Assembly (NCBI GenBank): GCA_036172245.1
Contig: JAYWIR010000007.1
Location: 868,001-932,000 of the forward strand
DNA length: 64,000 bases
Source: Raillietiella orientalis
Taxonomy: Eukaryota
Direction: 5' to 3'
A model generated the notes under the pieces. That model ran no database searches. It saw nothing but the letters and a program-made list of their open reading frames with translations, and was not told where the DNA came from. The translations under genes were made by a program, and so were the position numbers. Shown here piece by piece: positions 2,381 through 51,478 of this stretch; the stretch's first letter is position 1; each line of letters starts with the position of its first letter.

Positions 2381-3720
2381 GTTGCCACCCGTCACACTGG
2401 GGCGTTTATTTTGAACAAAAAGAAACTTGAGAATGGTGGGACACGTTGTCCCACCCTTCTCAAGTGCCTGGCAAGCCAGCAGCCTGTGGGGTTAGCGGTA
2501 CGCTGACCAATGAGATTCACCTTGGCAGCAGGAGGGCGGGGGGGGGGGGAACAAAAAGGAAAATAAAACTTAAATGAAAATACTATGGAAATACTATGAA
2601 GCGCCGGGAAGGGATCACAGTTCGCTGAAGGGAGTCTTCTGCATCCTTTGCAGAATGCCAGCAAGATCCATCTGCATAGCACCCAAGTGGGACCATCCGG
2701 CTGGTATCCGCAGAAAGCGAACTGGACGACATCCCTCTTTCTTCCTCTGTCGGCTTCTCTCCAGGCCACCACAATTTCGCAAATATAGCAAAGAGCTGCT
2801 AAGGCTGCGGCTCGCGGTAGGGCATTCCGCATGAAAAAGAATCGCGAAACGCCCTGGGGTTGGCAACCGGAATCTGCATGGTCGTACCAAAACGCTTGCA
2901 TAGGGGCCGGGGGCAACACAGTCCACAAGCAGTGCGGGAGGGATTCCCATTCCGCGCTTCGGCGACAGTCCGGGATCACGCTCCCCAGCGTCCAGTTATG
3001 TCGGCGGGCGTTGAAGGGGAAGACCCCAATGCAACAACAGAAGTGACGAATCCTTCCACTTCAGTGGGAGGGTGCTGCTGTCTACGTACTCTGGGGGTCA
3101 CTTCAAATCTTCGCTGTGAATACACAGCAGCCCGTCCGCATGGAAGGACACTTGGGATTGCAGCGTCGGTCAGCTGCTCCATGGTCTAGCCATCCTTTTC
3201 CTCCTGCTTGCACTCTCGCAGGAGACCTCTCATCTCGCCGGTTGGATACTGCCAGTTTCCTGCCTTAGGGAGAGCGGCGTTACGGCAAGGGAGGTCAGCT
3301 CCTCGCACTCGCTCATGCTGGAGCTCTCCAGGATCTTCCGCAACGAGCAGCCGAGATCTCAGGCAGTTCCACCTCTCCGAGCTCCGCTCGTTCAACTTCC
3401 AGCTGTATCCTGTAGCCAGGTGCTACAGCTGGTGGGACAGCAGGACATCCAGCCATTCTCCTTCGCCAAGGTGACCATCCTTCCAAGGTTTCCGCGCTTT
3501 CTCAGCTTGCGGTCTCGGAACAAAAGATGAGACCTACGTGGCTGGCGAGGAGGCGTGCGGGAACGCACCAGGGGGATACCCCCTGGTCTCCGATTCTTCT
3601 CTGCGATGACCGACGTTGCCCATCTCAGTTGTATCTCCATGGAGAGTGGGGCAGGAAACCCGTTGGCGCAAAAGAGCAATTTTCAATAGAGTGGCAGGTA
3701 CCATGCTGAAGAGAGCTGGG
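2381..3720 (-). mobile_element. 5'-truncated Tx1-like LINE: ORF2 C-terminus plus 3' UTR
   Basis: Minus ORF 2392-2979 has CRRSAEWESLPH...RNALPRAAALAALCYICEIVVAW, homologous to the other copies. Terminal AATAAA plus hairpin at 2381-2410. Confidence 0.85.
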
Positions 3721-8230: not shown

Positions 8231-10500
8231 TTGACACCCGGTCACGCCAGGGCATTCATTAATAAAATAAACATACATGCATGCGGCAGGAAGTTTAATT
8301 TTGCCACGTTGCTGATAACTACGAGAAGGAACCTGCCGGGAACTGGCACGCAAGCCAGCGGCATTCGCCTCGGCAGCACAGGGAAAGGGGAGACAAACAA
8401 AAAGAAAGATAAAAGAAAGATAAAACAAAAAAAATACAAAAAATTTAGGGTGGGGTGGGCGTTCGGAAAGGGATCACTCCATGCTGGCAGGTGTCCTCTG
8501 CATCCTTGTAAGGATGCCGGCAGGTTCTCATTTCAAGAATCCCAGATGAGGCCATCTTGACGCTGTCCTCATGAAGAGGACAGCAAAATAGATGACGTTC
8601 CTGTCGTTCCGGCTACTGGCGTTGCTCCATACAGCCACGTTCCCGAGCAGGTAGCAGAGCGCTGCTAGGGATGCGGCCGGCGTGAGGGCGTCGCGCAGGA
8701 AGACGCACTTTACAACGTCTCTGGCGTTGCCACCAGGGGTTCCAAGGGTAGTGGCAGAGCGTCCCCGAAGGAGCCGGAAGGCCAGAGCCCGCATTGGAGG
8801 CTTTGTGGTTAAGGCTTCCGCGTGTGGTACCATGCGTCGTGGGTTCGAATACTCCGGCAGAAACTGACGCCACTGCGTCGTTGGATTCCGAGTTTCTCCT
8901 GCAATGGCGCTGGTTGGCCGAGACATTCGGGAGTGGCACTGGTGGTCGTTTAAGCCGTTGGCCCATGATGAAGGCCGGAACAATGGGAGTCGACCTTCGG
9001 GTCCTTCCAGGAATCAAGGGGTGGGGAGTTCCCCCTCCGGTCGCACAACGGAGAGCGGACCCCCCACACCGGGGAGACCCCTCCGGTTTCAAGATGGAGC
9101 AGGAGCCTTCACAGGCACCTCTCCAGCTGTTCAAAGGTGCGGAACTCCCATATTGCGGGGGGGGACCCTCCGAGTCAGCAAGCGAAAGCGATTCCCCTGC
9201 GGGAAGCTACAGCGCCCCTTCTGAATTTCGGAAGCGTCCCTTCGGGATTCTCTTCAGAGGAGTGAACAGGAGCGGTTCCCTTGCGGGTTCCCTCCGGAGA
9301 AGAAATTCCTACTAGCGGATCCTTTCCGGGTTTCCTTCGGAGATGAAATGGAGAGGACCACCCCCCTTCTGGGGTGCTCCCTCCTGAGAGAATGAGGAAG
9401 GAGATTCTCTTCGGAGACAATCCAGGGTGGGAGATGCGACCCCCCCTGAAGGAGGATCCCTACGCAAGCGTAAGAGTAATGGACTCCGAGCCTTCCTGAA
9501 TTCATAGGGCGGAACATTTTGAGGTACCCCCTATTTTGAAGAATGAGCCCACTAGAAGGTGCGAGAGGGACTTTCACTCCCCGCACCTTGCACAGTTCGG
9601 GTCCACCCCTTCCCCCGTGTACAGTGATGCCGGCAGGCGTTGCACGGGAGGTCCCAGTGCAGAAGCATCTTTGCCGACTCGTGCCACTTTGAGGGGAGGA
9701 TACGGATGTTCATGAGCGCCAGGGACCACTGCAGTTCTTCCTCCGGAATATCCAGTAGCACACCCCGGAGAAAAAGTTATGAGGTCGAGCACTCGGGATC
9801 ACAGCGTCGGTGAGATGACCCGTCGTTCACTCGCCCAGTCCTCTTCTTCTTCCGGAGATTTCCACAGTAACCCCTCCCATTTTGCCGCGAGGTTGCTGTC
9901 TATGTGTTTCCTGAGGGAGGGCAGCGCGGCGTCGAGGGAGGTTCTGCTTGCGCATGCACTTTTCACAGGATCTTCCAGGATCTCCCGCAGTTGTTGCGCG
10001 CGTACAGGAAATGTTCCGCACATGGCTCCTGGATCCTCTCCCACGTACGAACGGTTTCCTGCAACCAGGCACTTCCGTTCGCGGGGCGGCACGAGATCCA
10101 TCCGTTGTTCCTGGCCAGCATGGCCACCTGCTGAAGGTGCAGTCCGCAGTGGATGAGGCGGCGTGGAGGGCGCGCAAGGAAGGACGCGAGTTCCACGCTG
10201 CCGGTGGCTTGCTGGACAAGAATAATGCAGGTTGGCACCAGGTGGGTGCTCCATAGGGTTATCACGAGGGAAAGTGTCCGAGACTGGAGCTGCAGCTCCA
10301 TTCGCTCCAGCGAGGAGGTCAGGAGGTCTATGCCGACATCCCGACGCGGAGCACACATGCCCTTCAGGCGGACTCGGCGCCTCCCTTTGCCCCAGAGGAC
10401 GATCCAGACGTCTTTTGTCCACTTTCTAATGTTGCATGGCAATGGGGAAAACCCTTCTTCTGCGTGCACCGTCGCGACCCTCCTTTTCGCTGGAACCTAA
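8231..10500 (-). mobile_element. 5'-truncated Tx1-like LINE, split by an insertion at ~8790-9545
   Basis: ILPSKWHESAKMLLHWDLPCNACRHH (9552-9761) continues into RDALTPAASLAALCYLLG...RWPHLG (8528-8760). Family 3' terminus at 8231-8260. Confidence 0.85.
8790..9545 (+). mobile_element. Putative tRNA-headed SINE-like insertion
   Basis: A-box-like GTGGTTAAGG and B-box-like GGGTTCGAATAC near the 5' end. Related sequence at ~20030-20370 (+) and at 15660-15760/16600-16680 (-). Imperfect flanking duplication GAGCCC..AGG. Confidence 0.5.
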
Positions 10501-11009
10501 GGTGACTTCCGGAACGCGTCCAGAAGGCAGGAACGACTCTATCCCGGCAGTTGGGCTCGACGCTTTAACTCCAACCATTTTCAGGATCGGTTGCTTCGTC
10601 AGGTGAGTCTTTGCCGACACTCCTTAGCGGACTCCGACTTCCATGGCCACCGTCCTGCTGCCCATAACAACCAACACGTTTTATGGAATGTGATGGGCGT
10701 CGCATCAAGCGCCGTAACCCAACGTTTGCTTCGTCGAAAAGGGCCAGTCCTGCTTACCCAAATGGGTCCACTGGGCACTCGTGGATCCGAGCTTCAGCTT
10801 TCAAGCAAGCCGGACTTCTCAATCATTTCAAGTTTGAGAATAGAACGAGGTCATTCCGGCCCCAAGGCCTCGAACCATCCACTTTACCTGATGAGACTCC
10901 GTTCTTTTGCCACTTCGGCGTGCTCCAGCTGTCCCGAAGGAAACTTTGGAGGGAATCAGCAGCTACCAGATGGTTTGATTCGTCTTTAGCCCCTACACTC
11001 AGAGCTCTC

Positions 11010-12190
11010 ACGACCAGTTTGCACGTTCGGATCGCTGCGGACCCCCACCGGAGTGTCCTCCTCTGGCTTCGTCCTGTCCAGGTAAGGGTCTACCATCTTT
11101 GAGACAAGGATATGCTGCAGCACGCTGACGTCCAAGCTGACCAGCCTGATAGCCACCCGTGGGCTGAGGGGCGGCGCGAATGAGATCGCCTTCAGCCCCG
11201 CCGGGGCGAATTCGAAGCTGTGCATCATCTTTCGCCAGGAGGAGATTGTGGACCACATGATTGTAACGAATATGTTCCAGCTTTCCGACCGGCGGAAGAT
11301 TCTGCTCGCGAGCGACCTCTAGGAAGAGGTAGCCAAGGTACCGGAGTACGATATCGCTAGCCAGAAAACCGAAGTGAAGCTGGGAAGGAAGATCAGTACT
11401 TTCGAGTTTCAGATTGGTGTGCCTTCCCAGCACGTGGTTCGGAGACCTCGACGAGGTGTGCCACCTAGGAGACACCATCAGAGCCTTAGGGAGGGAAGGG
11501 GGATTGAAGATTCTGAAGATACAGTGGCAGTTCTGAAGATACGCTGGTGTCCTGAGGACACGAGTCCCATGCCATTTTAAGGGGAGGGTGGAGGTCTTCA
11601 TCAGCATCGGAGGCCACTTCAGTTGTTCCTGCGCAACTTCCAGCAGCTCGCCCCAGCGCAAAAGTCCAATAGGGGTGGTAATCCGGGCCGCAGTATCACA
11701 TAGAATCCCCGTTTTCCATTCCCCGATCTTTTTCTCCGTACCGGAGATTTTAGCGACCACTTCCCATGCCGCCGCAGTGTTGCTGTCCAGATGGTTTCCG
11801 AGGGAAGACAGCACTGCAGCGGGGGGAGTTCTTCCTGCCCACGCTCTTCTTGTGGGGTTCTCCAGGACCTCCCGAAGCGTTAGGCGGTCATTGCGCGCAA
11901 ACAGCTGCCTTCGCTGTTGTTTGGCGCGCTGCTCGTTGCTCCTCGCCCATGAGTATACGGTTTGCTCTAGCCAGGCGGATCCGTTAACTGGGCGACAGGA
12001 GAGCAAGCCCACATTGTTCCTCATCAGATTGGCCACTCTCTGCAGCTGCAAACCGCCGTGGCAGACTTGGCGGCGACGACGGAGCTCAAGAAAGGCGGAT
12101 CGCGCTCGCAGACTGGAACGATCTGAAAAGATCGGTCCGCAAGTTCTGCTGCCGGTTCCCCTTGCACGTGCTCCCCCGCGGCTTCGGCGA
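11010..12190 (-). mobile_element. LINE ORF2 fragments (RT thumb LRYLGY piece and pre-zf-RVT region)
   Basis: ORF 11008-12051 is homologous to the 9700-10200 region (HLDSNxAAxWE, LPLKWH), with an RT motif-7-like LRYLG near 11335. Confidence 0.7.
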
Positions 12191-12790
12191 TGCCACCCGG
12201 GTTCACCGGGACGTTTATTAAAAATTCTTCATCCGTCAGTACAGAATGTGGTACAAGGCCCCACTAACGGCCACGCAATACCGGACCTGCTGGGACACCG
12301 GGACGCAGACCGGTGTGAACTCTCCTCGGCAGTGGAAGGGGATGGGGGAGAAAACAAAAATAAAATAAAATTCAGAAAAAAAAAACAAAAAGAGTTTGGA
12401 GGGCCGGGAAGGGATCACATTCCACTACGGGGAGGGCCCATTCTTTGCAGGATGCCCTAGAGGTCTTTCTTCATTCTTCCCAGCTGGGGCCATCCTGTAG
12501 CTCTCTGCAGGAAGCGAACAGCATACTGGATGACGTCCGTCACGTTGCAATCTTCATCTTCGGCATCACTCCAGGCCGCCACAATTCCACGGATGCAGCA
12601 AAGTGCTGCCAAGGCTGCGGCTGGACTGAGGGCGTCCCGCACAAAGAGAAGACTGTAAACGTCTCTGGGATTGCCACCAACCGGTATCCCACGCGGCTTC
12701 GGCAAAGGCGTGGCCAACAGCAGAGCGTTTCTGTAGGCTTGCATATTCTCCCGATGCCCGGACGTCCAGCATCTTGCGCAGTGCAAGGCG
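12191..12790 (-). mobile_element. Tx1-like LINE 3' end
   Basis: CARC...RDVYSLLFVRDALSPAAALAALCCIRGIVAAW...GWPQLG followed by the complete structured 3' UTR. Confidence 0.88.
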
Positions 12791-13745: not shown

Positions 13746-15189
13746 TGTTTATTACGACATTCTTGTTACGTTTGTACCTTATATAAAGGTTAGCTTTATA
13801 ATATGATTATAAAGTTCAATTTTACAGAGGTTTCAAATGTCGTTGAATACACAGCTGTTGTTGGAGGAGCGTGAAAAGAGGGTTAGTGCATTAAAATAGC
13901 ACTTAGAGGGACGTTAGCACCTGAATAGCTTCTGCTGTTGGAGATGCGGAAGAGCCGTCCAAACGGATGTCATCTGCTGGTGGACCTACACTGTGATGGG
14001 GAAGGACTGCTGTTTGTATTTGGGATATAGGGCATAGCTGTCCTTGTGTTTGGTACATATTCTCATGGCGAAGGTTTCTTTCGAGGTTTTCTGCTGAATA
14101 CGAAGATGGGTTGGGAGTTGAGATATGGTTGATGTATATGTCCCGGGAAAATTTTATAATTTCCGTACATAGATGCCTAGAGATCGCGGCAATTGTTCTT
14201 TGAGGGATTGAGAGCAATTTTAGGAGCTTATCATTTTCGGGATCCCATGAGCCGAGCTCACCAATTACAAATGCTTGGTTGCTGGTGCGCAAGCCTTGAT
14301 TCTTGAGGGCGGTCTCGATCTGTGCGTACTTCAGGATTTTGGTTTCTCTTGCACGCTGTAGAGATGATACACGATTTTCAGATGAGATCACAACGTCAAT
14401 GATGACAGCTGTGGACGCATTCTGTAAAAATATGTCGGGGCGAAGAGTGGAGTTTAACACGTCTACTCGGCGATCCTTCTGGTCAGCGGACCATCGAGGG
14501 GAGAGGATCTTGAACAAGGTGTCGACAACAACGTTATGTCGTTGGGTGATCATTGTTCCGAGATAAACTGGACAGTGACGCAGGACATGCGCCAAGGTTT
14601 CTTTTACGTAACCACATCTTCGGCATTGCTGAATTTCACTAGGCGTTTTCCGATTTCCGTTGAGGGAGAAGCAGTTCAAACGGGCACGGTGTATAAAACG
14701 CCGGTCTGCGAAGCGGAATCCATCACTTGGAGGCAGGAATGACATGGGGGCTTCGTGGAGGGCTGCACATTCTATTATCCCACCTTGGTCTGGCTTGGCT
14801 AGAATTGATAGGCGTTTTTGCTCTCTAAAGAGAGCACGCATCGTTCGTGCTACTTGTCGCCGCTGCGGAAAGGAGAGGATTTTGGGGTTTCCATGTTCGG
14901 GGAAGGATAAAGAGAGCGTAGCAGAATTCCACGTTATGGAAAGGTGCTTCGTAGCTTCCCGTAATGTGGACCACATCGTGCGGGGATCACCACTTGGGCG
15001 GTCTAAGGGGGACGAACAGCATCCATTGAGGAACCTAGTGAACAGAAGCAGGTTTGGCGGCACGTGAGCCTTCCTACGTACGGCGTCGGAAAGGGAGGAG
15101 GAGGGATCAGTCACATGGGAATGAGGACACGTTAGTAGCTTGAACGCAGAGTCAGCAATCATTGCTCGTGCTTCTTCGACAAGAAGCAT
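13746..15189 (-). mobile_element. RLE-type non-LTR retrotransposon 3' half (Utopia/NeSL-like)
   Basis: 428-aa open frame: DSAFKLLT, KPDQG, RFADRRFIHRARLN, CRRCGYVKETLAHVLRHC, RHN, LRPDI...IDV...K..KY, GELGSWDPEN, SRDIY. AATAAA near 13748-13753 on the minus strand. Confidence 0.9.
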
Positions 15190-15763
15190 TATGCATGTAG
15201 TGGCATGTAATTTGGTAGTGATTATTAATGGGGAAGAGGTTTAATATGGGTTGGATAGGGTGGGGTTACGAGATGGTTTGTTTATTGGGTGATTTATAGA
15301 AAAATTTTCAATGTTTATGTAGTATTAATTGAATTGTTAGGGAATGGGTTGATTTAACGAGCAATGGGATGTGAGTGGAATATAGTGTAAAGGGAATGTT
15401 AACGGATTAGAAAAATTTTGTTATAGTAATGTTTAGTTATGGATTTATTTGCAGAGTAAGTTTGATAGTTATATATTTTACTTTAATGTGTATTGGAGGA
15501 TGTGATTGGGTAAAGTCATCCATCACGAATACTTCCGTATAGGTATTCGAAACTGCCTCTCCATGCGTGCAAGTTTTTCGCTCTGGTCCTGCGTAGAGGC
15601 GTCCCATGCGAAGCTCGCCTTCACCGCTGGACCCGGAACAGGGTGGATCCAACTGCGCCAGGAACACCTCGTGAAACCAGGAAAGGAATCCGGAGAAAGG
15701 AGTCCGTAACTCTCACGCCTGGGAGGAATTTCCGAAGGCAACCCTCGTCCTGTCTGTTTCCTA

Positions 15764-16570
15764 TTTCCACCCGGGCACGCCGGAGCGTTCATTGAAATTT
15801 AAGGTTAACTCGCAACTTGTGGAGGAGTACGTGTTCCTGCCACACCCCGTTTGTCCACGGACCTGCCGGATCGCCGGTGCGCAGACCGACGGGGCTTCCC
15901 TCGGCAGCGGAGGGGGAGGAGAGGAAACAAAAGGAAAAAGAAAGAGTGAATACAAATAAATAAAAACCTCTGGAAAAGATCATTGCCCATTGAAAAGAGC
16001 CCTCTGCATCCTTTCCAGCATACCGGCTAAATCCGTCCGAATAGGAGGTCCAGGTGTGGTCATCTGGGCGCTATCTGAAGAAAATCAACTGCACGAAATC
16101 CCTTTCGTTCCTTCCTCCGTCAGCTTCGCTCCAGGCCGCCTCAATCCAGGGGATGCAGCAAAGCGCTGCTAGGGCTGCGGCTGGCTGCAGGGCGTCTTGC
16201 ACGAAGAGGGGCTGCAAAACGTCCCTGGGAGTGCCGACCGGGATCGGGAGGGTCGATTCGAAACGTTCCCTTAGGGCCGGAAGGCAACACAGTCCACAAG
16301 CAGGTGCAGGAGGGGGATTCCCATTCGCCATACCTGAGACAGTCCGGGCTCGTCGTCCTCAGCGTCCGGCGGTGTTGGCGAGCAGTGGAAGTGGTTGCCG
16401 AGTCACAGGCAGTTCCATCTCTCGCTTCCCATCTCGTGGATCTCCGCCCACGCACTGTTTCCTCCAGCCAGGCGCTCGAGTTGGCGGGTCAGCAGGCCAT
16501 CCAGCCGTTCTCCTTCGTCCAGGTAGCCATGCGTCCGAGAAGACCTCATCTTCTCACCTTTCGTCCGGAG
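15764..16570 (-). mobile_element. Tx1-like LINE 3' end
   Basis: RDVLQPLFVQDALQPAAALAALCCIPWIEAAW plus the structured UTR. Terminus AATGAACGCTCCGG-CGTGC-CCGGGTGGAAA. Confidence 0.85.
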
Positions 16571-17857: not shown

Positions 17858-19700
17858 TTTAACACCCAAACACTCCGGGACGTTTATTTATTAAAAATAA
17901 AACTTGGACGTCAGTGGCAACATGCGTGATGCTGCCACGTCACAAAATATACAGAAAGAACCTGCCTAGAACCGTCGCGCAGGCCAGCGAGGTTCGCCAC
18001 GGCAGCATAGAGTAACGGGAGACAAACAAAAAGAAAAATAAAACAAAAAAATACCAAAAATTAAGGGTGAGATGGAGGTTCGGTAAGCGATCACCGCGTG
18101 CTGGCGGGTGTCCTCGGCATCTTTGTGAGGATGTCGGCAGGTTCCCATTTCAAGAGTCCCAGGTGGGGCCATCTTGACGCTGTCTTCACGAAGAGGATAG
18201 CAGAATAGATGGCGTCCCTGTCGTCCTGGGCTCCTCTGGCGTAGCTCCATGCAGCCACGATGCAGCCGCGTAGGCAGCAAAGTGCTGCTAAGGATGCGGC
18301 CGGCGTGAGGGCGTCACGACAGAATAGGCGCGTCAAAACGTCTCTGGGGTTGCCCTCGGGGATCCACAGGGACGCGAGGAAGCGTTCCCACATGGAGCAG
18401 AGGGCAACACAGCACACTAGGAGGTGCGGGAAGGACTCTCTCTCGCCGCACCTGCCGCAGTTCGGGTTTACACTCCCCTGCATCCTGCAAAGGATGGTCC
18501 CCTCCTCCAGCGGACTGTGATCCCTTCCCGGCCCTCCGAAGTGGTTCTTTTTTTCTTTTCTTCTTATTTTTATTTTTGTTCTCTCCCCATTCCCCTCCGC
18601 TGCCGAGGAGAGTCGCGCCGGTCTGCGCGCCGCCGACTTGGCAGACCCTGTGGTTTCCCACCCGGGTGCGCCGGGGCGTTTATTTCTAAACTATCGGGGA
18701 ACTCTGTTCCCGTACAAAGAACACAGAAAAACGAAGGGAGGGCTCCCTGACACGCAGGTCGGTGAATGCGAAAGTCCGGAACGGGAGGGAGGGGACCACA
18801 AATACAATAAAAAAATATAAATAAAAATATGGGGGCAGGCCCTATTGTATTGGCCGTCGCGGGGCCTAGTGCCGCTTACATATAGAGTTTTTAATAAACG
18901 CCCCGGCTGACCGGGTGACACACATTCTCCTGGGTCCAATGGTGTCGGCGGGCGTTGTACGGGAGGTCCCAGTGCAACAGCAGGGTCGCCGATTCCTTCC
19001 TCTTTAAGGGGAGGGTAACACTGTTACAACACGCTAGGTACCACTATACCTCCTCCCGAGGAATTTGTAGTAACTCTCTTCAGCGTAGTAAGTCCTTTTG
19101 GTGGGACACTCGGGGTCGCGGCATCCGCGAGCTCCTGAGTTGTCCACGCATTTAGATGTTTTTTCCAGCTCTCTATCACGGAGGTCACTTCCTACCTCTC
19201 TGGCAGTTGGCTGTCCATTGCTTCCCTTAAGGAGGGCAGCACAAGGGCCAGAGGAGTGAACCAAACCCACAGCAGATTCCTGGTGTTCCCCAGGAACTCC
19301 CTCAGAGGCTGACGAGCGTATCTGCTGTTCCGTAGGCAAATGCACTCGGCCTCGCCCGTGCCGTTGATTTTCCCCCATGCGAAAACGGGACTCTTGCAGC
19401 TAGACCGTCCAGATAGAGGGGAGGGTGGAGATCCAGGGGTTCTTCTGCACAAAGGCAATCACGTGTCGGACTGCGGACAGAGAGGATCCAGGCTCTGCTC
19501 GGTGGCCGCGACAACCAAGGTCAGTCCTTCGCAGCCGGTTGTCTGTTTGGCGAGAATTCTTGTCGGAGCGCAAAAAGGTGCAGTTCAGAGCTTCGCCACG
19601 AGAGTCAAAGTTCTTTATTGGAGCTTCCACTCCAAGAGCACCAGCGTCAGGAGGCACAGGCCACCATCCCTACGCGGAACACAGAGGTCTTTTAAACGGA
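17858..19700 (-). mobile_element. 5'-truncated Tx1-like LINE hosting two nested 3'-end insertions
   Basis: ORF 18091-18483 (CGRCGERESFPHLLVCC...RWPHLG) resumes at 18922 with LLHWDLPYNARRHHWTQ. Confidence 0.88.
18481..18921 (+). mobile_element. Nested Tx1-like 3'-UTR insertion with ~11-bp TSD; itself contains a minus-strand 3'-UTR copy at ~18653-18833
   Basis: Outer TSD ACACTCCCCTG (18470-18480) / ACATTCTCCTG (18922-18932). Inner TSD GGCAGACCCTGT (18640-18651) / GGCAGGCCCTAT (18834-18845). Confidence 0.82.
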
Positions 19701-22050: not shown

Positions 22051-23081
22051 TGTACACGCAGCATTTGTACTCCAAGACCAGCTAGTAATACATTTTATTA
22101 TCCAGAAAAAAGAAAAAAGAGAAAAAAAGGGAGGGAGGGGGGATCATTCGAAAATTTCGGAGAATGAAATGCGAGCTGAACGTTGGTAACACTTGCTCCG
22201 AATATTGATTATTCACGGGTACTTTTAGGCTTACTATTACTGTCCACGTGCCAGGAAGTGTGAAGTTTCCCTCCGGTCCGTGTTCCTTCGATTCGCATGA
22301 ATACCTGTGAACGTCATCAATATTCCGATTTGAGTAATAGTTCCCTGCGAGTGTTAACTACGTAGGTGGTGAAGCATTGGGGTGCTGAGATTTAAGGGGA
22401 CCCGCTTACGGAAGCTCACCTCGTGCATCAGGTTCGAAAGAGCATCTACCTCCAGCAAGAGCAGGGGGGAGGGGAAAGGGGGGAGGGGAAACCAAAAGGG
22501 AGAAAGAAAAAAAAAAAACCATTAGAGGGTAATCGGGAAATCATATCATTCGAGAGGACCGACTGTGACCCGTGAAGCAGATAAAGTAAACAGGTGAATC
22601 GTGCGGTTTTCGAGTGTTTAATCACTTGAGACACTTCTCTTAACGCGGCTCAGCATGAGCCCACCTCTGATCTCCACAGCAGGTGCATCTCGCCGCAAAG
22701 TGCAAACATCCGAAGGATGTAGCGGCAGCAACAAATAGTGAGTTCGAAGTTTGCATGGAAACGTTTCTCTCTTACAAGTTCGGGACAATAAGTGATGACG
22801 GATGGGATCTCGCTCACCCGACGGTGAAAAGGATTGATATGTGAAAGTGCAATCGGATTTTATAAAAAAAAATTCCAGGTGTGAAACAATTTCCCCCACC
22901 CTTCCCTCTTCTTCACCCCCCCCCCTCCGCTTACGCACCTACCCACCCCCTTCCCGAATATGATGCGGCGAGCACACGTCATGCGAGGAATCTTCAGAAA
23001 TGGCAGCCGCATTTTTTTTTTTTTTTTTTTCCATATAAAAGGTGAAGGGTTAGTAGCGGCAGAAATTTGTGGATTCGCAGG

Positions 23082-24347
23082 ATGGCGAGCGTGAGGAAGA
23101 GCATGAAAAAGTTGCTTTCTTTGAAGACGAGTGCCCGGAAATACAGGCTGGACCACCCGTCGGAAGGATCCGCGGATCCGAAGCGTTCGCGATCTTGGAA
23201 TCCCTTCGAGGCGGGATGCCAGGAACGCAGCCAAGAGAGCGCTCACAGCCCCTCAAGCCAAGACCCGCGGACGGACTGCGGCCCATTCAGCGTGGCGGGC
23301 GGCCGCGCCGCCCCCCCTCTCAGCACCACGGGAAACCTGGAATGCGCGATCAAAGCCGATCCCAAAGGCGGGACTCGAACGGACGTGAGGGAGAAAGGTG
23401 AGCAGCCACCACCTTCCACCTCCCATCTGGGGATTCTGATCACGCTGTTCGCCGCGCTGTCGTACTCGTTCTACTCCGTGTCCGTGAAAAAACTGGTCCA
23501 CTTTTCCCCGCTGGCGCTGGGATTCTACCGTGGACTGCTGTGCTTCGTCCCGGCGGGAGCAGTGGCCATTTGCAGGAAGCAAGACCTGTTTCCAAAAGAA
23601 TTCAGGAAGCACCTGATCGCCAGGAGCGTTCTGGGACTTCTGGGTTTGGTCTGCGGCTTGATCGCCCTTCAGATCCTCCCTCTGGAAGAGTCGAGCGTGA
23701 TCCGCTACTCGTACCCCGTGTTCACTGTCATCATAGCTCGGATCGTGTTGAAAGAGTCCTTTGGTGTTGTGAACGTCGTCGTGGTGATTTTAGGCATGGG
23801 AGGCGTGATCTTGGCCGCCAAGCCTCCTTTACTGTTTGGTAATTATCAGAGCAGCTTATCCACAGGCGATCATGTGAAAGGAATTCTCTGCAGCTTGGGG
23901 GATTCCCTCACCTATGGTATCGTCATTGTGATACTTAGACATCTGAAAGCGCTGGACCCATCGGTCGTCATGTTGGCGTACGACTTCACGAACGCCTTTG
24001 TGCTGGGCATCGCATCTCTCTCGATGAAGGTTTGGAAGATGCCTCAAGACTTGTTCGAACTGGGGTGGATCGTGCTGATGGGCGTCGGATCGTTCGGCGG
24101 CCAGTTCTGCTCCTCGCTTGCATGCCGCTACGAAGAATCATCCATCGTTGCCATAACGCAAACGAGCGACATTGTTTTCACGTACATATGGAGCATCCTC
24201 ATTTTCCGGGAAACCTTCAGTTATATAAGTGCCCTCGGGGGAGCACTGATTCTTTTAGCAGTGGTTCTGCTGAACATAAAAAAGTGGCTGCAAGCAAGGT
24301 CCGCTTCGTCTAAAATGAACCCGTTACTTAAGTGGATGATTACTTAA
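23082..24347 (+). CDS. SLC35G1: Solute carrier family 35 member G-like (EamA/DMT transporter), single coding exon
   Basis: Intact 421-aa ORF from ATG 23082 with about 10 hydrophobic segments in two EamA repeats (LIARSVLG, YSYPVFTVIIARIVLKE, AKPPLLFG, GQFC, TSDIVF). AATAAA at 24404. The start codon and exact paralogue are uncertain. Confidence 0.9.
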   Translation: MASVRKSMKKLLSLKTSARKYRLDHPSEGSADPKRSRSWNPFEAGCQERSQESAHSPSSQDPRTDCGPFSVAGGRAAPPLSTTGNLECAIKADPKGGTRTDVREKGEQPPPSTSHLGILITLFAALSYSFYSVSVKKLVHFSPLALGFYRGLLCFVPAGAVAICRKQDLFPKEFRKHLIARSVLGLLGLVCGLIALQILPLEESSVIRYSYPVFTVIIARIVLKESFGVVNVVVVILGMGGVILAAKPPLLFGNYQSSLSTGDHVKGILCSLGDSLTYGIVIVILRHLKALDPSVVMLAYDFTNAFVLGIASLSMKVWKMPQDLFELGWIVLMGVGSFGGQFCSSLACRYEESSIVAITQTSDIVFTYIWSILIFRETFSYISALGGALILLAVVLLNIKKWLQARSASSKMNPLLKWMIT

Positions 24348-46856: not shown

Positions 46857-47231
46857 ATGGCTCCCAAGTCGGGAAGTGGGAAGGCGGTGAAGAAGGCTGG
46901 TAAAGCTCAGAAAAACATCACGAAAGGAGACAAGAAGAAGAAGCGGAAGAGGAAGGAAAGTTACGCGATCTACATCTACAAAGTGCTGAAGCAGGTGCAC
47001 CCGGACACGGGCATCTCGAGCAAGGCCATGTCGATCATGAACAGTTTCGTGAACGACATATTCGAGCGCATCGCTGCGGAGGCGTCCCGCCTGTCGCACT
47101 ACAACAAGCGCACCACCATCACCAGCCGAGAGGTGCAGACGGCGGTGCGCCTGCTGCTGCCTGGGGAACTGGCCAAGCACGCCGTCTCGGAAGGCACGAA
47201 AGCGGTCACCAAGTACACGAGCTCCAAGTGA
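46857..47231 (+). CDS. H2B: Histone H2B, replication-dependent type
   Basis: Intronless [55 protein letters not shown]...AVTKYTSSK. Confidence 0.99.
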
Positions 47232-47285
47232 GCACCGTGCGGTTGCTGTCGCCCGCGGCCCACCTTGCCCTACCAAAACCACCAA

Positions 47286-47326
47286 GGCCCTTTTTAGGGC
47301 CACCTTCGTGCTTCTGAAAGGGAGAT
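47286..47326 (+). terminator. Histone 3' stem-loop and purine-rich downstream element
   Basis: GGCCCT-TTTT-AGGGCC at 47286-47301, flanked by CCAA/ACC, with AAAGGGAGAT about 16 nt downstream. Confidence 0.93.
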
Positions 47327-49155: not shown

Positions 49156-49925
49156 ATGCCACCCGGATACGCCGGGACGTTTATTCAAACTCTTCCATGG
49201 TCAATACAATACGTGGTACAAGGCCCTACTAACGGCCAACATTTCTCCGGACCTGACGGGACACCGGTACGCAGACCAGCGTGACTCTCCTCGTCAGTGG
49301 AAGGGGGAAAAAACAAAAAAAATAAAAATAAAACAATAACCGAAAAAAAAAAAAGTTTTTTGAGGGAGGGGAAGGGATCACTGACCACTGGAAGGAGGGT
49401 CCATCCTTCGCAGGATGCCCTCGAGGTCCTCCTTTAATCCACCAAGCTGGGGCCATCCGGCAGCTCTCACCATGAAGCGAACAGCATACGGGATGACGTC
49501 CCTCTCGTTACGAACATCTTCGTCGTGGGCATCACTCCAAGCCGCCACGATGCCTCGGATGCAGCAAAGTGCTGCAAGGGCTACGGCTGGCTGCAGGGCG
49601 TCCCGCACGAAGAGGAGCCGGAAAACGTCTCTGAGCGCTCTGCCCACGGGGAGCCCGAGGGTCGTCCCAAGACGTTCCCAAAGGTGTTGGAGGGCAGCAC
49701 AATCAACAAGAAGATGGGGGAGCGATTCCTGCTCCCCGCACCTGGCACATTCAGGCTTTACTCTCCCCCGCGTCCAGTGGAAGCAGCGTGCGTTGCATGG
49801 TAGGCCCCGATGCAACAGCAACAGCGCCGACTCTTGCCACTTCAGAGGGAGAATCCTGGATCCATTCAACACTGGGGGCCACTTCAGGTCATCCGTCTGG
49901 ATACCGAGCAGCTCGCCCCGGCGGC
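49156..49925 (-). mobile_element. Tx1-like LINE 3' end (best preserved zf-RVT copy)
   Basis: ORF 49378-49872 LPLKWQESALLLLHRGLPCNARC...CARCGEQESLPHLLVDC, followed by the full structured UTR. Confidence 0.9.
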
Positions 49926-49929
49926 GTGA

Positions 49930-50480
49930 AAGTGCAGGAGGACAAGGACTCTACGGTGAGCCTATAAACCTTCAGCAGGAGCGCAAAGTACAGACTGAAG
50001 AGCAACGGCTGACGCTATCACCTTGCCTTACCCTCTTTCTAATTGGTGCGCCGTACACGTGGCGGCCTCTGAAAAAGGTGTTAGTTAATGCGTGCAGCTC
50101 CAAGACGCGCGCAATTAGTTAGATAGCGAGGATGGAAGGCCAAGCTCTAGGAGGAGTTTCTGGTCGACGCAGTCGAACCAACCAACCAACTTTTTGCAAA
50201 TCCAACAAGAACGCAAAGCTTCCAAAACTTGTTCCCCCGCTATGAGCAACCTTAGCGGTAGCAGATTCGGCCGCGGCACGTGGCCAGAGGAAGCCTGAGC
50301 CGCGAATCTTATGGATTCTTTGAGGACGAAGTCGCGAATCCTCAGGAAAGGTTGATGGCCGTGTAACGGACTGGAATCAAGGCGGTGCTCCAGCCTTGTC
50401 TGCAACTATGTTGCGCCCCTGGTCGGGTCTGACGGAAGCGCGAAATTCCCTTTCTTCTCAGGAATGACCGGAGGATTAAG
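49930..50480 (-). mobile_element. Tx1-like RT fragment
   Basis: FDCVDQKLLLELGLP and RVRQGDS, homologous to 13500-13740. Confidence 0.75.
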
Positions 50481-50849: not shown

Positions 50850-51478
50850 CTCAGACGGCACTGGCAGGATGCAGAGTGCATCTCACGTCGTAGTGGGGGA
50901 CTTCAACGTAGGTTTGCTTTCAAATGACTCACTCCTCCAGGGCCTGCTCTCGAAAGCCAAGGGCTCCGTAGAGCGGCGCACACACCACCAACTTGTTGAC
51001 AGACGAATTCAAATCCATCGACCACGTGTTCCTAGTATTATTAGCTGTGTTCGCGGGTGGGTCGGCAAGGATGAATACTGTCCAACTGGTCGGATGACTC
51101 CAGGACGCAGGAATGGCAGGGATGCCATCCACTGGATGCGAATTTTCGTACGAAACATCTCCAGGTGGTCCCACCTGGGCGCAAACAGGACTCAGCTCTC
51201 TAGGATCCTAAACAGGATCTAGAGGACCAATCCATGCGCAGTGTGATCCTTTCCCCGCCCTCCCCACTCCCAGACCTTTGTGCCCTCCCTACCTTTCACC
51301 TTTTGTTTGTTTTTTTGTTCCTTTATTCCTCCCCTCGCGCGTTGGTTGGACCTCGCCGGTTTTTGCTCCGGCAGCTAGCTTGCTCTTGTGGAGTGGTGAG
51401 CCCTTGGGTTCACCACAAGAAATTAGAATGCACTTTTATTTTGTATAAATAAATGCCCCGGCAAATCCGGCTGATAAA
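50850..51478 (+). mobile_element. LINE APE remnant joined to a Tx1-like 3' end
   Basis: VVVGDFN endonuclease motif, then RDAIHWMRIFVRNISRWSHLG. Terminus AATAAATGCCCCGG-CAAAT-CCGGCTGATAAA. Confidence 0.75.

What the first reader, a model, noticed from the sequence alone, without database searches (positions are those of the whole stretch)
12191..12420. Covarying multi-helix RNA element in the LINE 3' UTR
Seen in sense orientation across copies: GUGAUCCCUUCCC at the ORF2 stop, then a U-rich tract. Helix P1 is CUGCCG/CGGCAG at 8330 and 15860 but CUGACG/CGUCAG at 49250 (compensatory change). A purine-rich bulge (GAGGAGAG) leads to helix P2, with variable paired arms (ACACCGG/CCGGUGU, GCUGGC/GCCAGU, CGUCGGU/ACCGGCG) and a conserved YUGCG loop. 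A third hairpin has unrelated sequence but the same position (2426-2464, ~17915-17938, ~51385-51420). Inference: structure is selected over sequence, as expected for an ORF2p-binding or processing signal; possibly an undescribed cis-RNA motif.
Basis: partly seen in the sequence, partly recalled or inferred. Interest (0 to 1): 0.7.

Follow-up and report, generated by a model that had tools for sequence, protein, structure and literature searches.

The report
Folded, poly(A)-less tail of a LINE
The flagged stretch is the folded RNA tail of an L1-like jumping gene, most likely the handle its own copying enzyme grips; such signals are known, but this one ends without a poly(A) run and may contain two small RNA knots.

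Summary
Window 12191-12418 (minus strand) is the 3' UTR of a 5'-truncated (~500 bp) L1-clade LINE copy, bounded by a 16-17 bp target-site duplication. The superfamily has at least 1,466 intact tail ends in this genome.

Across 322 tails (17 groups of three or more copies):
- P2 (6 bp, loop CUGCGN) is best supported, but only its closing pair approaches phylogeny-aware significance (E 0.05 or <0.025 in one test, 0.78 in another).
- P1 has one compensatory lineage and is absent from 7 of 17 groups, including the three young intact families sampled.
- The long third hairpin is missing in this copy's clade, replaced by a candidate 4+4 bp pseudoknot.
One covarying pair hints at a mini-pseudoknot there.

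No Rfam or ribozyme match. Best reading: a stringent-type ORF2p recognition and start-site signal (inferred, not shown). The scan already reported these hairpins, the pseudoknot ideas and insertion into kin LINEs on other DNA of this genome. Added here: tree-level tests, no CpG excess, and a pseudo-triloop reading of the loop.

The parts
12687..12703 (-). 5' copy of the 16-17 bp target-site duplication (one mismatch); host LINE ORF2 reads on as PRGFGKGVANS on the + strand
12415..12686 (-). C-terminal remnant of the element's ORF2 (5'-truncated copy, one in-frame stop), ending at the TGA inside the stop-codon motif
   Evidence: translation; zf-RVT hit on the sister copy at 49381-49950
12406..12418 (-). 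conserved GUGAUCCCUUCCC motif spanning the ORF2 stop
12350..12394 (-). U-rich tract, followed by a C-rich linker
12327..12332 (-). P1 5' arm
12315..12326 (-). purine-rich internal-loop strand (11 nt in nearly all groups; 12 here through a 1-nt insertion)
12297..12314 (-). P2 hairpin: arms 12314-12309 and 12302-12297, hexaloop CUGCGU 12308-12303 (candidate pseudo-triloop, C1-G5)
12287..12292 (-). P1 3' arm, mutated in this copy (CAGCAG instead of CGGCAG)
12248..12272 (-). clade-specific candidate H-type pseudoknot (GGCC 12272-69 with GGCC 12260-57; GUGG 12264-61 with CCAC 12251-48) in place of the long P3 hairpin of other groups
12214..12219 (-). AAUAAA
12194..12213 (-). terminal module: 5-bp hairpin P4 (12210-12206 with 12200-12196); candidate 2-3 bp pairing of the bases after AAUAAA with the P4 loop
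12189..12193 (-). 3' end of the element (3-5 nt after the module), no poly(A)
12172..12188 (-). 3' copy of the target-site duplication; the copy sits antisense in the EN-RT linker (about codon 306) of a related LINE ORF2
49157..49381 (-). sister tail of the same group, carrying the compensatory P1 pair
15765..15910 (-). related tail (core 15859-15910, terminal module 15768-15793)
8232..8477 (-). related tail (core 8329-8379, terminal module 8235-8260)
17860..18092 (-). related tail (core 17958-18008, terminal module 17863-17888)
18517..18648 (+). related tail (core 18597-18648), interrupted directly after by an antisense family-B tail
51243..51476 (+). diverged tail (core 51335-51386, terminal module 51448-51473, own TSD)
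2383..2618 (-). decayed related tail (core 2480-2531, terminal module 2386-2410)

Best explanation
The stretch is the cis-acting 3' tail of an L1-clade LINE superfamily with stringent-type template recognition.

Shown: the element identity; a fixed 3' end 3-5 nt after a terminal hairpin, without poly(A); insertion with 11-17 bp duplications; conservation of P2, a third structured domain and the terminal module across lineages.

Inferred: the RNA is cut by the host polyadenylation machinery about 23 nt after AAUAAA, usually after an A. ORF2p then binds the CUGCGN hairpin and the terminal module and starts reverse transcription at the base of the A-tail, copying 0-2 A. P1 and the P3 hairpin or pseudoknot are accessory, lineage-variable scaffold.
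For: - Full-length relatives have ORF1 with CCHC knuckles and a ~1,200-aa EN-RT-CCHC ORF2. The best PDB match is human L1 ORF2p, E 1e-46, versus R2 at 1e-14.
- 1,466 exact terminal modules genome-wide, 0 for the reversed control.
- A run of 6 or more A follows in 3 of 322 tails.
- Duplications of 11 nt or more in 64 of 217 copies versus 16 of 217 controls; most start 3-5 nt after the module.
- P2 is kept in 16 of 17 groups. Loop U2 and G5 are 15/15 and C1 14/15, while position 6 varies. The closing pair is C-G, U-A or G-C and ranks first in both tree-null tests.
- P3 region z is -2.6 to -4.4 in 13 of 13 groups outside the flagged clade.
- No CpG excess in these copies (0.054 versus 0.052).
- Precedent: ZfL2 stem-loops bound by ORF2 (PMC4176376); conserved hairpin with compensatory changes in monocot L1 (PMC3472496).
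Against: - No binding, probing or expression data.
- Tree-null significance is weak: E=0.05 and <0.025 on 78 rows, E=0.78 on 269 copies; no other proposed pair came close.
- P4 shows no double change in 44 group representatives.
- A U-C closing mismatch sits in 8 of 69 parsed copies of the flagged clade and in the flagged copy, and group 16 lacks the P2 loop, so P2 is not strictly required.
- The loop is shared by families whose ORF2s are only 67-69% identical, unlike ZfL2, where the loop gives family specificity.
- Consensus core domains fold only modestly better than shuffles (z +1.3 to -1.9).
Confidence: 0.68

Rival explanations
1. The module mainly serves host-side 3'-end formation and RNA stability or export (AAUAAA, U-rich tract, hairpins bound by host proteins). 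ORF2p primes through 1-2 nt of target microhomology without specific tail binding.
For: AAUAAA lies about 23 nt before the end and the ends fall on A-containing 3-5-mers. The loop is the same across diverged ORF2s, as expected for a slowly evolving host partner. Several duplications share 1-2 nt with the element end.
Against: It does not explain why poly(A) is almost never copied (3 of 322) or why the start point is fixed relative to the hairpin.
Confidence: 0.15
2. Much of the stem 'covariation' is mutational: fold-back or template-switch events during reverse transcription repair or extend inverted repeats, and shared descent does the rest. Only short sequence motifs are selected.
For: Single copies carry new perfect 15-19 bp inverted repeats at P3 or P4 (L010, L114, L042, L154; read). 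Tree-null E-values are weak. The flagged copy's folding z is 0.16.
Against: It cannot account for the invariant loop, the fixed 11-nt spacer, or linked changes between positions that are not arms of a simple hairpin (terminal C-G/U-A/A-U). P3 keeps its position and a 3-5 nt loop in 13 groups.
Confidence: 0.1
3. The tail contains or adjoins an undescribed self-cleaving ribozyme that releases the poly(A)-less 3' end from read-through transcripts of nested arrays.
For: Precise end without poly(A); elements sit in nested and tandem arrays. Ribozymes occur in other non-LTR elements (PMC8501958 abstract; PMC3185411 listing).
Against: No ribozyme family in Rfam scans at E<=5 (window) or E<=10 (10 tails). 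No hammerhead or twister motif in 17 group consensuses; HDV-like 7-mers occur in 11 of 17, but the P2 loop does not match and the fold was not built. Nothing element-encoded lies 3' of the end. The ribozymes in those two papers are at 5' ends. AAUAAA offers a simpler cut.
Confidence: 0.05

Closest known systems
Stringent-type 3' tail stem-loops of L2-clade LINEs (zebrafish ZfL2-1/ZfL2-2, eel UnaL2; PMC4176376, abstract and Discussion read)
   Same: Conserved 3' UTR hairpin with exchangeable stem and constrained loop, near a fixed 3' end.
   Different: L1 clade, not L2. Three to four domains over ~150 nt instead of one hairpin. No terminal microsatellite. The loop is shared across families rather than family-specific. 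Binding is untested here.
Stringent L1-clade lineage of monocots (LINE1-1_ZM with its SINEs) and Chlamydomonas L1-1_CR (PMC3472496, PMC3747384; passages read)
   Same: L1-clade element with a 3' hairpin showing compensatory changes and conserved loop bases.
   Different: Different loop (UCU there). L1-1_CR ends in poly(A). No SINE partner was looked for here.
Vertebrate R2 3' UTR pseudoknot-hinge-stem (PMC11601368, passages read)
   Same: A pseudoknot, a linker and a terminal stem within the last ~65 nt position the template for TPRT; the flagged clade has a candidate pseudoknot, linker and terminal stem within ~80 nt.
   Different: R2 is an RLE-type element without AAUAAA. No sequence likeness was tested. 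The pseudoknots here are unproven.
Pseudo-triloop of hepatitis B virus epsilon (loop CUGUGC; PMC1636360, passages read)
   Same: Hexaloop with C1 and G5 fixed and position 6 free, capping a stem proposed to be read by a reverse transcriptase; CUGCGN fits that pattern.
   Different: Analogy only. There is no C1-G5 double change here, so base-specific reading explains the data equally well. No priming bulge.
3'-terminal acceptor pseudoknot of valyl tRNA-like structures (PMC7749636, passages read)
   Same: 3 bp plus 5 bp stems just before a short unpaired 3' end in a poly(A)-less RNA template.
   Different: Only 2 of 3 pairs hold here (68.9% of cells). No T-arm, anticodon arm or CCA.

Membership tests
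L1-clade non-LTR retrotransposon | ORF1 plus ORF2 with APE endonuclease, RT and C-terminal CCHC | tested here: met
   Intact relatives L101-L120; Pfam Exo_endo_phos and RVT_1, weak zf-RVT; best solved relative is human L1 ORF2p. The flagged group's C-terminus is only 35-40% identical to these families, so it is linked by the shared tail and a zf-RVT hit.
L1-clade non-LTR retrotransposon | 5' truncation and target-site duplication | tested here: met
Tx1 group | RT tree placement with Tx1L | not tested
   No named Tx1 references were obtained; best protein hits are 21-32% identical and mostly unnamed. The label Tx1 is recalled or taken from scan notes.
Tx1 group | target-site specificity | tested here: met
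   Groups 21, 19 and 15 land at fixed ORF2 codons; the flagged group is looser, 4 of 12 mapped flanks at one codon.
Stringent-type LINE 3' tail | conserved 3' stem-loop with compensatory changes | tested here: met
   tree-null support borderline
Stringent-type LINE 3' tail | tail required for retrotransposition and bound by the cognate ORF2p | not testable with these tools
   needs assays
Stringent-type LINE 3' tail | ends in a short tandem repeat or poly(A), as in UnaL2, SART1, L1-1_CR | tested here: not met
   3 of 322 with six or more A; no repeat in group end consensus
Stringent-type LINE 3' tail | tail shared with a partner SINE | not tested
   tail-only insertions of 200-300 bp exist but were not examined for a SINE head
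Self-cleaving ribozymes (HDV-like, hammerhead, twister) | match to family model or catalytic-core motifs | tested here: not met
   Rfam; recalled motif patterns (crude; HDV-like 7-mers present but not in the P2 loop)
Pseudo-triloop hairpin | hexaloop with a 1-5 cross-loop pair and free position 6 | tested here: inconclusive
   C1 14/15 (U in the other), G5 15/15, position 6 U8 C4 A2 G1; 235 of 260 copies C-G or U-G; no double change
H-type pseudoknot, flagged clade | both stems supported by covariation | tested here: inconclusive
   Stem 2 pair: 57 U-A, 11 C-G, 5 other of 73 parsed (76 copies), 4 parsimony switches; stem 1 invariant
H-type pseudoknot, terminal | both stems supported by covariation | tested here: inconclusive
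   One pair C-G/U-A/A-U (265 of 293 copies pair), tree-null E=18; third pair holds in 21 of 44; P4 has no double change; group 29 breaks the pair in 6 of 6

The most novel reading that the evidence does not exclude
An L1-clade superfamily has replaced poly(A) priming by a folded 3' terminus: a 2-3 bp plus 5 bp mini-pseudoknot (shaped like viral tRNA-like acceptor ends) and a pseudo-triloop hairpin (like HBV epsilon), with a second pseudoknot in one clade. Together they act as a ruler that fixes the start of reverse transcription. The signal is shared across diverged, differently targeted families, so their enzymes could copy each other's RNA or any cargo carrying this tail.
Probability: 0.2. 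Interest if true: 0.62.

Novelty: new variant of a known kind. Interest (0 to 1): 0.33.

Why it matters
Human L1 recognises poly(A), and structured-tail recognition in the L1 clade is documented, in the papers I read, only for a monocot and an algal lineage. A young, intact, site-preferring L1-clade family with a defined ~150-nt tail and a precise end would allow a direct test of how stringent recognition works in an L1-type enzyme, and might serve as an RNA-templated insertion tool. As a class of feature it is expected for LINEs, and this scan has noted it many times in this genome.

Tried and rejected
- Pairing of the U-tract end with the purine-rich strand (pseudoknot with P1): own-partner advantage p=0.33 over 15 groups (one group's strand was out of register and left so). 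Not supported.
- Pairing of that strand with the bases after P1: p=0.82 over 13 groups. Rejected; it fails in the flagged group.
- Kissing of the P2 loop with the P4 loop: p=0.14. Not supported.
- P2 loop with the bases after AAUAAA: p=0.0004 in the group permutation but a tiny effect, no tree-null signal, and it competes with the terminal pairing. Not adopted.
- LTR reading (TG...CA ends): rejected; the duplication flanks the whole truncated element and the motif overlaps the ORF2 stop.
- Rfam: no relevant hit.
- CpG decay as the source of C-G to U-A switches: no CpG excess.
- Metagenome scan for the terminal pattern: 9 loci, none with the U-tract or P2 upstream; chance or unrelated.
- Protein search: no relative above 32% identity; only the best 8,000 candidates were scored.
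- RNA runs: no RNA holder listed; no evidence either way.
- Scan look-up by sequence: nothing.
- Literature searches listed no paper describing this tail. The library lacks most subscription papers and Repbase entries; supplements of PMC3472496, which hold its hairpin figures, were not read.

Full report
What it is. The flagged stretch lies on the minus strand in a G+C-rich pile of LINE fragments. It is the 3' UTR of a ~500-bp 5'-truncated insertion, read from 12686 down to about 12191. It is bounded by a 16-17 bp duplication with one mismatch (12703-12687 and 12188-12172) and sits antisense in the EN-RT linker of another LINE's ORF2, whose frame resumes across it. Relatives with intact ~1,200-aa ORF2 and a zinc-knuckle ORF1 exist in this genome. 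Pfam gives APE endonuclease and RT, and the best solved relative is human L1 ORF2p. The closest database proteins are 21-32% identical. Tx1 membership was not tested by a tree.

Sample. I collected 322 distinct tails from the window and from genome loci. They came from targeted searches (top hits of eight tail queries, RT hits, and 70 position-ordered pattern hits), so this is not a random sample. They form 17 groups of three or more copies (275 copies) and 41 small groups. An exact terminal pattern occurs 1,466 times genome-wide with 0 for the reversed control; a variant pattern gives 1,520.

Anatomy. Stop-codon motif, U-rich tract, C-rich linker, P1 5' arm, an 11-nt purine-rich strand, P2 with hexaloop, 3-4 nt, P1 3' arm, a third domain, a short U-rich run, AAUAAA, a 5-bp terminal hairpin P4, and 3-5 nt. 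A covariance model from 24 copies outside the window recovers 8 window copies at E<=0.026.

P2. It is kept in 16 of 17 groups. In 24 natural copies (the one closest to each of 23 subgroup consensuses, plus one extra from the compensatory P1 lineage), 94% of cells pair, 5 of 6 pairs have double changes, and RNAalifold predicts only this helix. Own-partner arms beat swapped arms (p<0.0001, 16 groups). The closing pair is C-G, U-A or G-C. In my R-scape-like tests it ranked first both times. It gave E=0.05 and E<0.025 under two nulls on 78 rows (15 of 93 clusters dropped for wrong or duplicate anchors; 40 null sets each), but E=0.78 on 269 copies (100 null sets). Against strictness: U-C closes the loop in 8 of 69 parsed copies of the flagged clade and in the flagged copy.

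The P2 loop. Across 15 groups the loop has U2 and G5 invariant, C1 in 14, and position 6 free. That is the pattern of a pseudo-triloop as described for HBV epsilon (PMC1636360, passages), but there is no double change to prove the C1-G5 pair.

P1. The consensus pairs fully in 9 of 17 groups, has a central mismatch in group 29, and is absent in 7, including the three young families with intact ORF2 that I sampled. The own-partner test gives p=0.005, driven by extensions and divergent groups. In the flagged copy one arm is mutated, and the tail folds no better than shuffles (z=0.16).

Third domain. In 13 groups the region holds a long hairpin of different sequence, with z from -2.6 to -4.4. In the flagged clade (groups 28-31) z is -0.2 to +0.6. 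There, a 24-25-nt motif can form a 4+4 bp H-type pseudoknot. Its second stem shows 57 U-A, 11 C-G and 5 other among 73 parsed of 76 copies, with 4 parsimony switches. Template switching between lineages could make these fewer than four independent events, and the first stem never varies. An earlier scan note blamed CpG decay, but CpG sites mutate no faster than other C/G sites in these copies (382/7124 versus 1175/22621). Single copies with newly extended perfect inverted repeats (L010, L114, L042, L154) show that fold-back mutation does act on these hairpins, which weakens P3 as proof of selection.

P4 pairs in 95.5% of cells in 44 group representatives but has no double change. The base after AAUAAA covaries with the second loop base: C-G 172, U-A 51, A-U 25, U-G 17 and 28 non-pairing of 293 copies. 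On the group tree this is about two lineage-level switches (C-G to U-A to A-U) and one lineage that breaks the pair. By my hand tally of the first 100 position-ordered hits (whose pattern excludes some mismatches), 90 can pair and all 9 A-type hits carry U. The neighbouring pairs hold in 34 and 21 of 44, and the tree-null E is 18. A 2-3 bp plus 5 bp pseudoknot, like the 3/5 stems of viral valyl tRNA-like ends (PMC7749636, passages), is possible but unproven.

The 3' end. Six or more A follow the module in 3 of 322 tails. Duplications of 11 nt or more were found in 64 of 217 copies against 16 controls (13 nt or more: 41 against 7), and most begin 3-5 nt after the module. The end lies about 23 nt after AAUAAA, typically after an A.

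Mechanism. Shown: element type, fixed end, conserved domains. Inferred: host cleavage after AAUAAA, then ORF2p binding to P2 and the terminal module and initiation at the base of the A-tail. Precedents are ZfL2 (PMC4176376, abstract and Discussion), monocot L1 (PMC3472496 and PMC3747384, passages) and the R2 pseudoknot-hinge-stem (PMC11601368, passages). One difference: the loop is shared by families with 67-69% identical ORF2, so it may not give family specificity and a host partner remains possible. A ribozyme is unlikely; the cases I saw are at 5' ends (PMC8501958 abstract; PMC3185411 listing).

Context. 76 of 218 downstream flanks map to LINE ORFs of one reference family. Several groups use fixed codons; the flagged group is looser (4 of 12 mapped flanks at codon ~306).

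Novelty. The scan has reported these hairpins, the pseudoknot ideas and kin targeting on other pieces of this genome. Six literature searches listed no description of this tail, within a library that lacks most subscription papers. Verdict: real, a variant of a known kind of LINE signal, interest 0.33.

Noticed in passing
L101-L120, L121-L190; window 12172-12703: Families insert at fixed codons inside related LINE ORF2s: group 19 sense at the GDFN codons (6 of 10, plus 3 tandem repeats at the same site), group 21 antisense near codon 73 (12 of 22), group 15 antisense at codon 64 (4 of 5), group 31 at codons 497 and 1079 (3 each). Some of these copies may be segmental duplicates.
   Followed up: partly
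L010, L114:7840-8176, L042:687-1022, L154:5876-6211: Copy-specific perfect inverted repeats of 15-19 bp at P3 or P4, suggesting fold-back during reverse transcription.
   Followed up: partly
window 10424-11134 (-): Decayed 28S rRNA fragment inside the LINE pile (Rfam 295 bits).
   Followed up: no
window ~46900-47326 (+): Histone H2B-like coding sequence (recognised from the translation; no Pfam hit in the frame tested) followed by a histone 3' stem-loop match (E 0.001, below the gathering score).
   Followed up: no
window 13903-15240 (-): 445-aa frame resembling the C-terminus (CCHC plus restriction-like nuclease) of an R2/NeSL-type element; label from memory, no Pfam hit.
   Followed up: no
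window 23046-24347 (+): G+C-rich uninterrupted EamA-family transporter frame among the LINE fragments.
   Followed up: no
L231-L250 (group 4): In this lineage P2 lengthens to about 11 bp and in two subgroups the loop reads as a C(UUCG)G tetraloop; the same lineage carries the A-U terminal pair.
   Followed up: partly
L141, L143, L151, L087: Tail-only insertions of 200-230 bp with their own duplications; not checked for a SINE head.
   Followed up: no
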